DNA from: Escherichia coli
GTDB lineage: Bacteria; Pseudomonadota; Gammaproteobacteria; Enterobacterales; Enterobacteriaceae
Direction: 5' to 3' (one strand)
NCBI RefSeq assembly: GCF_002854065.1
Contig: NZ_CP024147.1
DNA length: 64,000 nucleotides
Position numbers and translations under genes: made by a program. The notes below the pieces were generated by a model. The model did not search any database, had not been told where the DNA came from, and saw only the letters and a program-made list of their open reading frames with translations. This document shows positions 33,715-34,587 of the stretch, in pieces; within the stretch, counting starts at the first letter, position 1, and every line of letters begins with the position of its first letter.

Positions 33715-34587
33715 ATGGATGCACCGAGTACCACACCGCATGATGCAGTGTTTAAACAATTTTTAATGCACGCGGAGACGGCTCGCGACTTTCTGGAGAT
33801 ACATTTGCCAGTGGAATTACGAGAACTTTGTGACCTCAACACGCTTCATTTAGAGTCGGGGAGTTTCATTGAAGAGAGCCTGAAAGGACACAGCACGGAC
33901 GTGCTCTATTCCGTGCAAATGCAGGGCAATCCCGGTTATCTGCATGTTGTGATTGAACACCAAAGCAAGCCGGATAAGAAAATGGCCTTTCGCATGATGC
34001 GTTATTCTATTGCTGCCATGCACCGGCATCTGGAGGCGGATCACGATAAGCTGCCGCTGGTGGTGCCGATACTGTTTTATCAGGGCGAGACCACACCTTA
34101 TCCGCTCTCAATGTGCTGGTTTGATATGTTTTACTCGCCGGAGCTGGCGCGACGCGTCTATAACAGTCCTTTTCCGCTGGTGGATATCACTATCACACCG
34201 GATGACGAAATCATGCAGCACCGGCGGATTGCGATTCTCGAACTACTGCAAAAGCATATTCGCCAGCGCGACTTAATGTTATTGCTGGAGCAACTGGTCA
34301 CGCTGATTGACGAAGGGTACACTAGCGGAAGTCAGTTAGTTGCCATGCAAAACTATATGCTGCAACGCGGTCATACTGAACAAGCGGATTTGTTTTATGG
34401 TGTGCTGAGAGGCAGGGAAACGGGAGGGGAGTCTATGATGACGCTGGCGCAGTGGTTTGAAGAGAGGGGAAGACAGGAGGAAAGGCAAGAATTCGTCCTG
34501 CGTCTTCTGAATAAAGGAATGTCTCGGGAAGACGTTGCAGAGATGGCAAATTTACCCCTTGCCGAGATTGATAAGCTGATTAACTAA
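33715..34587 (+). CDS. rpnC: recombination-promoting nuclease RpnC (YhgA-like, PD-(D/E)xK), allele with alternative C-terminal tail
   Basis: Start taken at ATG 33715 (MDAPSTTPHDAVFKQFLMHAE..., 290 aa); Rpn/transposase_31 family; the C-terminal about 48 aa is paralogous to the downstream orphan ORF. Confidence 0.8.
   Translation: MDAPSTTPHDAVFKQFLMHAETARDFLEIHLPVELRELCDLNTLHLESGSFIEESLKGHSTDVLYSVQMQGNPGYLHVVIEHQSKPDKKMAFRMMRYSIAAMHRHLEADHDKLPLVVPILFYQGETTPYPLSMCWFDMFYSPELARRVYNSPFPLVDITITPDDEIMQHRRIAILELLQKHIRQRDLMLLLEQLVTLIDEGYTSGSQLVAMQNYMLQRGHTEQADLFYGVLRGRETGGESMMTLAQWFEERGRQEERQEFVLRLLNKGMSREDVAEMANLPLAEIDKLIN
34435..34587 (+). CDS. candidate intragenic small protein (RpnS-like) from an internal start in rpnC
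   Basis: In-frame ATGATG at 34435 preceded by a strong Shine-Dalgarno GGGAGGGGAG; would give 50 aa MMTLAQWFEERGRQEERQEFVLRLLNKGMSREDVAEMANLPLAEIDKLIN. Confidence 0.4.
   Translation: MMTLAQWFEERGRQEERQEFVLRLLNKGMSREDVAEMANLPLAEIDKLIN

What the first reader, a model, noticed from the sequence alone, without database searches (positions are those of the whole stretch)
34415..34587. Strong internal ribosome-binding site and in-frame ATGATG inside rpnC
A purine-rich GGGAGGGGAG lies 4 nt upstream of the in-frame ATGATG at 34435, inside the coding sequence. It would start a 50-aa protein identical to the RpnC C-terminal tail. A consensus-strength Shine-Dalgarno inside an ORF is unusual and fits the intragenic small-protein (RpnS-type) arrangement reported for Rpn family genes. 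Here it sits on the variant tail, so the variant would make its own cognate small protein, distinct from the downstream orphan.
Basis: partly seen in the sequence, partly recalled or inferred. Interest (0 to 1): 0.45.

Follow-up and report, generated by a model that had tools for sequence, protein, structure and literature searches.

The report
Known internal start making RpnC antitoxin
The strong ribosome-binding site and ATGATG inside this E. coli rpnC gene are real and match base for base the published internal start that makes the small antitoxin RpnC-S, so the finding is correct but already known.

Summary
GGGAGGGGAG (34422-34431), a 3-nt spacer (not 4) and an in-frame ATGATG (34435-34440) lie inside rpnC (33715-34587). 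They open a 50-aa frame identical to the RpnC tail. The site has the strongest predicted Shine-Dalgarno pairing of all 435 internal in-frame ATGs in long ORFs of the window.

It is not new. The window is the E. coli panD-rpnC-panC locus. The block from 135 nt upstream to 32 nt downstream of the first ATG matches K-12 rpnC at 164 of 167 bases, and the last 21 nt before the ATG (Shine-Dalgarno included) and ATGATG are identical. In K-12 this internal start was mapped by retapamulin and Onc112 ribosome profiling. Its product, RpnC-S, was detected by tagging and shown to act as the antitoxin of full-length RpnC-L (Meydan 2019; Zhong 2023).

The start is kept in 17 further sampled E. coli loci (14 distinct haplotypes with the window) and in six distant plasmid Rpn genes. 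A profile of the tails matches the RpnA-S crystal structure (7TH0).

The window carries a short allele with three 4-aa units, against five in K-12. It also has a downstream stand-alone copy (rpnC-Ss, 34656-34865) with five units. Both features are described in the same paper. Under its repeat-number rule, the intragenic protein, not the orphan, is the cognate antitoxin. Verdict: already known, low interest.

The parts
33715..34587 (+). rpnC (yadD), full-length RpnC-L, 290 aa. It has an N-terminal YhgA-like PD-(D/E)XK nuclease domain (the toxin) and a C-terminal tail.
   Evidence: PGAP annotates this CDS in the 100%-identical strain CUWW06. Pfam PF04754 covers residues 7-207, E = 2.2e-87. NCBIfam TIGR01784 scores 266.9 bits against a cutoff of 52.1. 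Residues 1-240 are 238/240 identical to K-12 RpnC.
34422..34431 (+). Internal Shine-Dalgarno block GGGAGGGGAG, with GGAGG core at 34423-34427.
   Evidence: It has the best anti-SD pairing of 435 internal ATG contexts in the window. The GGGAGGG core is kept in all 17 further sampled E. coli loci; only the eighth base varies (G, A or C).
34435..34440 (+). In-frame ATGATG (codons 241-242 of rpnC), the internal translation start of RpnC-S.
   Evidence: Identical to K-12. Invariant in all sampled E. coli alleles. A homologous Met is present in six distant plasmid Rpn genes. Initiation in K-12 was shown by ribosome profiling and tagging (PMC10400941).
34435..34587 (+). rpnC-S coding frame, 50 aa (49 aa if the second ATG is used), the predicted intragenic antitoxin. 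The 4-aa repeat region RGRQ-EERQ-EFVL (3 units) starts at residue 11.
   Evidence: AlphaFold2 model with three helices (4-26, 31-38, 42-49), mean pLDDT 77. A profile of the tails matches 7TH0 RpnA-S at E = 1.5e-10.
34225..34404 (+). Zone of very low nucleotide diversity inside rpnC, 210 to 31 nt upstream of the internal start. It is a candidate location for the internal promoter and leader of the short rpnC-S transcript (inferred).
   Evidence: 8 of 180 sites vary here, against 13.9% in the rest of the CDS (P = 3e-5). At third codon positions 6 of 60 vary, against 34% (P = 2e-5). The only sigma-70-like candidate is TGGTCA-17-TACACT at 34295-34323, 8 of 12 matches. The paper reports a transcription start inside all rpn genes.
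34656..34865 (+). It has its own leader and start and lacks the SD-ATGATG block.
   Evidence: Its homology to the rpnC tail begins immediately after ATGATG. PGAP calls it a pseudogene in CUWW06 but a CDS ('RpnC/YadD family protein') in other strains. About 1550 of 5426 E. coli genomes cover at least 80% of 34588-34960.

Best explanation
The site is the internal translation start of rpnC-S, the antitoxin half of the RpnC gene-within-a-gene toxin-antitoxin system.

Proposed mechanism:
1. Ribosomes bind the GGAGG-containing block at 34422-34431 and start at ATG 34435 or 34438. They probably do so mostly on a shorter transcript that begins inside rpnC.
2. This makes a 50-aa (or 49-aa) three-helix protein identical to the C-terminal tail of full-length RpnC-L.
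3. The small protein pairs through its long first helix with the same segment of RpnC-L and blocks the toxic PD-(D/E)XK nuclease.
4. The number of 4-aa units in that helix sets which small protein fits which long protein. Because both come from one frame, they always match. This allele has 3 units.
5. The downstream rpnC-Ss has 5 units and is predicted not to be the cognate partner.

Shown here: the anatomy, the identity of the start signals to K-12, conservation across alleles and distant homologues, and homology to RpnA-S. Shown by others, in K-12 only: initiation, presence of the protein, antitoxin activity and repeat-number specificity. Inferred: that the same holds for this 3-unit allele.
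For: - Sequence and frame.
- Strongest internal SD pairing in the window, in a weakly folding context.
- The last 21 nt before the ATG, ATGATG and the next 26 nt are identical to K-12 rpnC; across -135 to +32 the two differ at 3 of 167 bases.
- Published data: Ribo-RET and Onc112 signal, SPA-tagged RpnC-S, and the finding that RpnC-S blocks RpnC-L only when repeat number matches (PMC10400941). The yadD internal start is listed with synonymous-site conservation (10.1101/520783).
- The SD core and ATGATG are invariant in the window and 17 further sampled E. coli loci (14 distinct haplotypes), whose tails range from 50 to 82 aa.
- Six plasmid Rpn genes at 32-55% identity keep an in-frame ATG at the homologous M-T-[LIV]-A position with GGAG, GAGG or GGAGG about 5-8 nt upstream. 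In 5 of the 6 it is the best SD of all internal ATGs.
- A profile of the tails matches the crystallised RpnA-S from its first residue, E = 1.5e-10. The three-helix model has a long first helix.
- Repeats begin at residue 11, inside the published range of 8-20.
- The toxin domain is intact and under purifying selection: 238 of 240 aa are identical to K-12 despite about 7% DNA divergence.
Against: - There are no expression data for this allele or strain.
- No consensus sigma-70 promoter was found upstream of the start. The best candidate matches 8 of 12 positions.
- The Pfam DUF4351 match to the tail is weak, E = 0.04.
- Foldseek against the PDB gave only non-significant helix-turn-helix hits and did not return 7TH0 among the 50 matches listed.
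- RpnC-L has no match in PADLOC.
- Anti-phage activity was shown only for the plasmid system RpnP2, not for RpnC.
Confidence: 0.93

Rival explanations
1. The same internal start is used, but initiation is at the second ATG (34438). This gives a 49-aa RpnC-S, and the first ATG is only a Met codon of the long protein.
For: In the six distant homologues there is a single Met, directly before Thr (M-T-[LIV]-A), which corresponds to the second ATG of RpnC's M-M-T-L-A. The GGAG at 34428-34431 lies 6 nt before 34438. Both ATGs give the same pairing energy.
Against: The GGAGG core lies 7 nt before 34435, which is near the usual optimum, but 10 nt before 34438. In the homologues the spacer from GGAG or GAGG to the ATG is about 8 nt, which matches 34435 if GGAG is taken at 34423-34426. 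Sequence alone cannot decide, and both may be used.
Confidence: 0.35
2. The purine-rich block is only a by-product of the Thr-Gly-Gly-Glu-Ser codons and of the purine-rich repeat region. No separate protein is made from this allele.
For: The tail coding region is purine-rich in general and holds another AGGAGG at 34474-34479 with no ATG after it. Position -6 of the block varies among strains.
Against: The start signals are identical in K-12, where initiation and the protein were observed. SD-plus-ATG is kept in homologues whose amino acids at that place differ (HGDAL, HEDKL, HEERF, HEDSI, GEGL). SD-like motifs with an ATG are otherwise depleted in the window.
Confidence: 0.03
3. The internal SD acts mainly as an elongation pause or regulatory site for translation of full-length RpnC-L, rather than as a start.
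For: SD-like sequences inside ORFs have been proposed to slow elongating ribosomes. This rests on general knowledge and was not tested here.
Against: This does not explain the conserved in-frame ATG at fixed spacing, the published initiation-inhibitor peaks, or the tagged small protein.
Confidence: 0.03

Closest known systems
RpnC-L / RpnC-S of E. coli K-12 MG1655 (Zhong et al., PNAS 2023, PMC10400941; yadD internal start in Meydan et al. 2019)
   Same: Same chromosomal locus (panD-rpnC-panC). The last 21 nt before the start (SD included), ATGATG and the first 10 residues of the small protein are identical. Residues 1-240 are 238/240 identical. The tail has the same architecture: MMTLAQWFEE, then 4-aa units, then the conserved block beginning GMSREDVAE.
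   Different: The tail has 3 four-aa units instead of 5 (a 24-nt gap), several substitutions, and ends ...KLIN instead of ...KVINLI. The small protein is 50 aa against 60 aa. K-12 has no downstream rpnC-Ss.
RpnA-S, crystal structure PDB 7TH0
   Same: Homologous over its whole length to a profile of RpnC-type tails (E = 1.5e-10, chain residues 1-45), starting at the initiating Met. The predicted three-helix fold with a long first helix matches the published description.
   Different: It comes from a different paralogue. It is too diverged for single-sequence phmmer to find, and Foldseek did not return it among the 50 matches listed. The paper reports no cross-neutralisation between RpnA-S and RpnB-L, or between RpnB-S and RpnA-L.
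rpnC-Ss and rpnE-Ss (ypaA), stand-alone downstream copies of RpnS
   Same: The window's ORF at 34656-34865 is the rpnC-Ss that the paper describes in some E. coli strains. It shares the TLAQWFEE block, the repeat units and the conserved block beginning GMSREDVAE.
   Different: It is not the feature in the finding. It lacks the SD-ATGATG block, starts 11 codons upstream of the homologous point from its own weaker SD (-5.3 kcal/mol), and carries 5 units rather than 3.
Other bacterial genes-within-genes with in-frame internal starts (for example Cas10d/Cas11d, cited in PMC10400941)
   Same: One ORF gives two products. The short one is the C-terminal part of the long one and is made from an internal SD and start.
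   Different: In the Cas example the two products cooperate. Here the short product inhibits the long one.

Membership tests
Rpn family (YhgA-like recombination-promoting nuclease) | N-terminal YhgA-like PD-(D/E)XK domain (Pfam PF04754, NCBIfam TIGR01784) | tested here: met
   PF04754 covers residues 7-207, model positions 1-201 of 203, E = 2.2e-87. TIGR01784 scores 266.9 bits against a cutoff of 52.1.
RpnC orthologue | Located between panD and panC in E. coli, with near-identity to K-12 RpnC | tested here: met
   Loci L001 and L002. 281 of 298 aligned residues are identical, and 238 of 240 in the N-terminal part. NCBIfam holds no RpnC equivalog that reached its cutoff; PGAP names the protein RpnC.
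RpnL/RpnS intragenic toxin-antitoxin | In-frame internal start with a Shine-Dalgarno sequence ahead of the C-terminal tail of about 50-80 aa | tested here: met
   The start signals are identical to the experimentally mapped K-12 site. They are conserved in 17 further E. coli loci and 6 distant homologues.
RpnL/RpnS intragenic toxin-antitoxin | Variable 4-aa repeats beginning 8-20 residues after the initiating Met | tested here: met
   The units RGRQ-EERQ-EFVL start at residue 11. Sampled E. coli alleles have repeat regions of 12 to 44 aa. The criterion comes from PMC10400941.
RpnL/RpnS intragenic toxin-antitoxin | Tail homologous to RpnS with a three-helix fold (RpnA-S, 7TH0) | tested here: met
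   Profile match to 7th0_A at E = 1.5e-10. AlphaFold2 model with three helices, pLDDT 77. Foldseek alone was inconclusive, with the best hit at E = 0.46 to helix-turn-helix domains.
RpnL/RpnS intragenic toxin-antitoxin | Tail annotated as DUF4351 (PF14261) | tested here: inconclusive
   PF14261 at residues 250-287 with E = 0.04, below significance.
RpnL/RpnS intragenic toxin-antitoxin | Internal promoter and transcription start for a short RpnS transcript | tested here: inconclusive
   No site passed the consensus scan. The best relaxed candidate matches 8 of 12 positions, at 34295-34323. A low-diversity zone at 34225-34404 is compatible with embedded signals. The transcription start data are published only for K-12.
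RpnL/RpnS intragenic toxin-antitoxin | The small protein is made and neutralises the long protein (growth and SOS assays) | not testable with these tools
   Shown for K-12 RpnC-S by SPA tag and dinD-lacZ assay. Not tested for this 3-unit allele.
Anti-phage defence system | Protection against phage, or a match to a catalogued defence family | tested here: not met
   PADLOC v2.0.0 has no match for RpnC-L. Defence was shown in the paper only for plasmid RpnP2. The phenotype itself cannot be tested here.

The most novel reading that the evidence does not exclude
The downstream rpnC-Ss may not be a redundant antitoxin. It may be a stored alternative specificity cassette. In every S-plus-Ss arrangement sampled, the repeat region of Ss differs in length from that of the adjacent L/S pair: 12 vs 20, 12 vs 24, 32 vs 18, 28 vs 18 (two arrangements), 36 vs 22 and 28 vs 16 aa. 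Homology between the two copies starts exactly after ATGATG. One single-gene allele (L010) carries an Ss-type tail. Recombination between the conserved TLAQWFEE block and the block beginning GMSREDVAE could therefore switch toxin and antitoxin specificity in a single step. Alternatively, Ss could neutralise non-self RpnC variants. The paper already mentions fusion and loss events, so only the functional reading would be new.
Probability: 0.2. Interest if true: 0.4.

Novelty: already known. Interest (0 to 1): 0.13.

Why it matters
The finding correctly picks out, from raw sequence alone, a real gene-within-a-gene: a toxin whose antitoxin is translated from its own 3' end. This matters for annotation. 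PGAP annotates neither rpnC-S here nor, consistently, the downstream rpnC-Ss. It also illustrates how repeat-number variation keeps toxin and antitoxin matched. It adds no new biology beyond Zhong et al. 2023. The window only supplies a short (3-unit) allele paired with a 5-unit orphan copy, which could serve as a natural test case for the published repeat-number specificity rule.

Tried and rejected
- Single-sequence phmmer of RpnC (290 aa) and of the 50-aa tail against PDB sequences did not find RpnA-S. A profile was needed.
- Foldseek of the 50-aa model against the PDB gave only non-significant helix-turn-helix hits. I therefore make no claim from fold search.
- The consensus promoter scan found nothing upstream of the internal start. 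A relaxed scan gave one weak 8-of-12 candidate, which I do not treat as evidence.
- I tested whether the 78 nt immediately around the start (-45 to +32) are less variable than the rest of the gene among E. coli alleles. They are not (10 of 78 sites, P = 0.73). The conserved elements are the SD core and ATGATG themselves, and the low-diversity zone lies further upstream.
- Supplementary tables of the two key papers are not held as text. I therefore could not read the exact start codon or transcription start coordinates reported for K-12.
- PADLOC has no Rpn model that matches RpnC-L.
- I did not run the large genome contigs or metagenome scans, or the large protein-database searches. The K-12 identity and the plasmid homologues already answered the question.

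Full report
**1. What the window is**

The region is the E. coli chromosomal locus yadE-panD-rpnC(yadD)-panC-panB. A 1561-nt query (33400-34960) matched 5424 of 5426 complete E. coli genomes and is 100% identical to strain CUWW06. In that strain PGAP annotates rpnC at the position equivalent to window 33715-34587 (290 aa), followed by a 'hypothetical protein, incomplete' at 34686-34865. The mechanical ORF list gives a longer frame from 33658 (309 aa). I use the annotated start at 33715, which is also the K-12 start.

**2. The observation**

- GGGAGGGGAG lies at 34422-34431, TCT at 34432-34434 and ATGATG at 34435-34440. The spacer is 3 nt, not 4.
- The GGAGG core ends 7 nt before the first ATG.
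- The ATG is codon 241 of rpnC, in frame. It opens a 50-aa frame ending at TAA 34585-34587, identical to the RpnC tail.

The site is exceptional for the window.
- GGAGG 4-13 nt upstream of an ATG occurs at only five sites on both strands, against 13.1 +/- 3.6 in Markov shuffles.
- Two of those five sites start ORFs of 146 and 288 aa with almost no open frame upstream, as real gene starts do. Two more start ORFs of only 28 aa.
- The site at 34435 is the only one deep inside a long ORF.
- Ranked by predicted pairing to the 16S anti-SD, 34435/34438 come first of 435 internal in-frame ATGs in ORFs of at least 200 aa: -10.8 kcal/mol against a mean of -2.3 (sd 2.1). That is stronger than rpnC's own start at -8.4.
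- The surrounding RNA folds worse than shuffled controls, z = +1.65.

**3. What it is**

An alignment with K-12 MG1655 shows that the last 21 nt before the ATG, ATGATG and the next 26 nt are identical. Across -135 to +32 the two differ at 3 of 167 bases. The sequences diverge only in the repeat region.

For K-12 the literature is direct.
- Meydan et al. list yadD among genes with a Ribo-RET in-frame internal start that shows a conserved start site and locally raised synonymous-site conservation (10.1101/520783).
- Zhong et al. [quoted passage not shown] 2D).
- They detect SPA-tagged RpnC-S.
- They cite dRNA-seq data showing a transcription start inside each rpn gene for a short, more abundant transcript.
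- They show that the small proteins block the toxicity and SOS induction of the long proteins.
- For RpnC specifically, adding one KGIE unit to either partner abolished neutralisation, and adding it to both restored it.

**4. Conservation**

I sampled 17 further E. coli loci across the identity range (L002-L018; 14 distinct haplotypes with the window). Tails run from 50 to 82 aa, and RpnC-L from 290 to 322 aa. All keep ATGATGAC and GGGAGGG[G/A/C]AG-TCT.

Six plasmid Rpn genes were also examined, at 32-55% identity: Salmonella, Klebsiella, Shigella, Vibrio, E. coli and Rickettsia.
- All keep an in-frame ATG at the homologous M-T-[LIV]-A position, 53-81 codons before the stop.
- GGAG, GAGG or GGAGG lies about 5-8 nt upstream, even though the encoded amino acids there differ.
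- In 5 of the 6 this is the best SD among all internal ATGs of the gene.

**5. The protein**

- The N-terminal part is a complete YhgA-like domain: PF04754, E = 2e-87; TIGR01784 above its cutoff.
- It is 238/240 identical to K-12 although the DNA is about 7% diverged, which points to strong purifying selection.
- The 50-aa product is predicted as three helices with a long first helix, pLDDT 77.
- A profile of RpnC-type tails matches the crystallised RpnA-S (7TH0) at E = 1.5e-10 from its first residue.
- Single-sequence PDB searches and Foldseek did not find it.
- The Pfam DUF4351 match is weak, E = 0.04.

**6. What is particular to this window**

- The tail has three 4-aa units (RGRQ-EERQ-EFVL) where K-12 has five. 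It is the shortest tail in my sample.
- 116 genomes are at least 99% identical over 34400-34600.
- Downstream lies rpnC-Ss (34656-34865, 69 aa) with five units.
- About 1550 of 5426 genomes cover at least 80% of 34588-34960, meaning they have such a copy.
- Homology between the rpnC tail and Ss begins right after ATGATG. Ss has its own leader, its own ATG and a weaker SD of -5.3 kcal/mol.

The paper already describes rpnC-Ss in some E. coli strains, and its loss by deletion or by fusion to the N-terminal domain. By the published repeat-number rule, the intragenic 3-unit protein is the cognate antitoxin and the 5-unit orphan is not. This is an inference for this allele.

**7. Open points**

- Which ATG is used (50 or 49 aa) cannot be decided from sequence. 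The family-conserved Met aligns with the second ATG, while the SD spacing favours the first.
- The internal promoter was not located.
- No expression data exist for this allele.

**8. Verdict**

The phenomenon is already known and published for this very gene. Interest is low.

Noticed in passing
window 34225-34404: A zone 210 to 31 nt upstream of the internal start is almost invariant among 14 E. coli rpnC haplotypes: 8 of 180 sites vary, against 13.9% in the rest of the CDS, and 6 of 60 third positions against 34% (P about 2e-5). It may hold the internal promoter and leader of the short rpnC-S transcript, or it may be a recombination anchor for tail exchange. The only sigma-70-like candidate is TGGTCA-17-TACACT at 34295-34323, 8 of 12 matches.
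   Followed up: partly
window 34656-34865 and loci L003-L017: In all seven distinct S-plus-Ss arrangements sampled, the repeat region of the downstream Ss differs in length from that of the adjacent rpnC tail: 12 vs 20, 12 vs 24, 32 vs 18, 28 vs 18 (twice), 36 vs 22 and 28 vs 16 aa. By the published rule, Ss would never be cognate to its neighbour.
   Followed up: partly
L010 (NZ_CP103521.1) and L002 (K-12): The single-gene allele L010 has an Ss-type tail (...KGRQAVRQEVSQEFAQ...KLINSN) almost identical to the Ss of L017. This suggests deletion or fusion between the S and Ss copies. The K-12 tail has the 5-unit length seen in the window's Ss but an S-type C-terminal part.
   Followed up: partly
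window 34611-34620 and 34636-34645: The 10-nt direct repeat CCAGATAATT occurs twice in the 68-nt spacer between the rpnC stop and the Ss start. The spacer is conserved in the six Ss-bearing strains compared. Its function is unknown.
   Followed up: no
window 34686-34865 (annotation of strain CUWW06): PGAP flags the Ss copy as a pseudogene ('missing N-terminus') in the 100%-identical strain and in W13-16. In other strains it annotates the equivalent ORF as an intact CDS ('hypothetical protein', 'transposase' or 'RpnC/YadD family protein'). rpnC-S itself is annotated nowhere.
   Followed up: yes
window 33658 vs 33715: An upstream in-frame ATG at 33658, with its own SD-like AAGAGGTGG (-7.6 kcal/mol), would extend RpnC by 19 aa to 309 aa. 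PGAP and K-12 use 33715 (-8.4 kcal/mol).
   Followed up: no
window 33715-34434: The N-terminal 240 aa of RpnC are 238/240 identical to K-12, while the DNA of the locus is only about 93% identical and pairwise diversity among alleles reaches 0.05-0.08 per site. This indicates strong purifying selection on a gene often annotated as 'putative transposase'.
   Followed up: partly
window 34656-34862 (Ss protein): There is a weak PADLOC hit of the Ss protein to the C-terminal end of model RmrA (PDLC03946, E = 5e-4, profile positions 290-336 of 357). Full-length RpnC-L has no PADLOC hit.
   Followed up: no
plasmid collection: Rpn-family genes are very common on plasmids: tblastn hits in 4833 of 72,556 plasmid records, mostly conjugative Enterobacterales plasmids. 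L021 and L023 also have a small ORF directly downstream of the rpn gene, which I did not examine.
   Followed up: no
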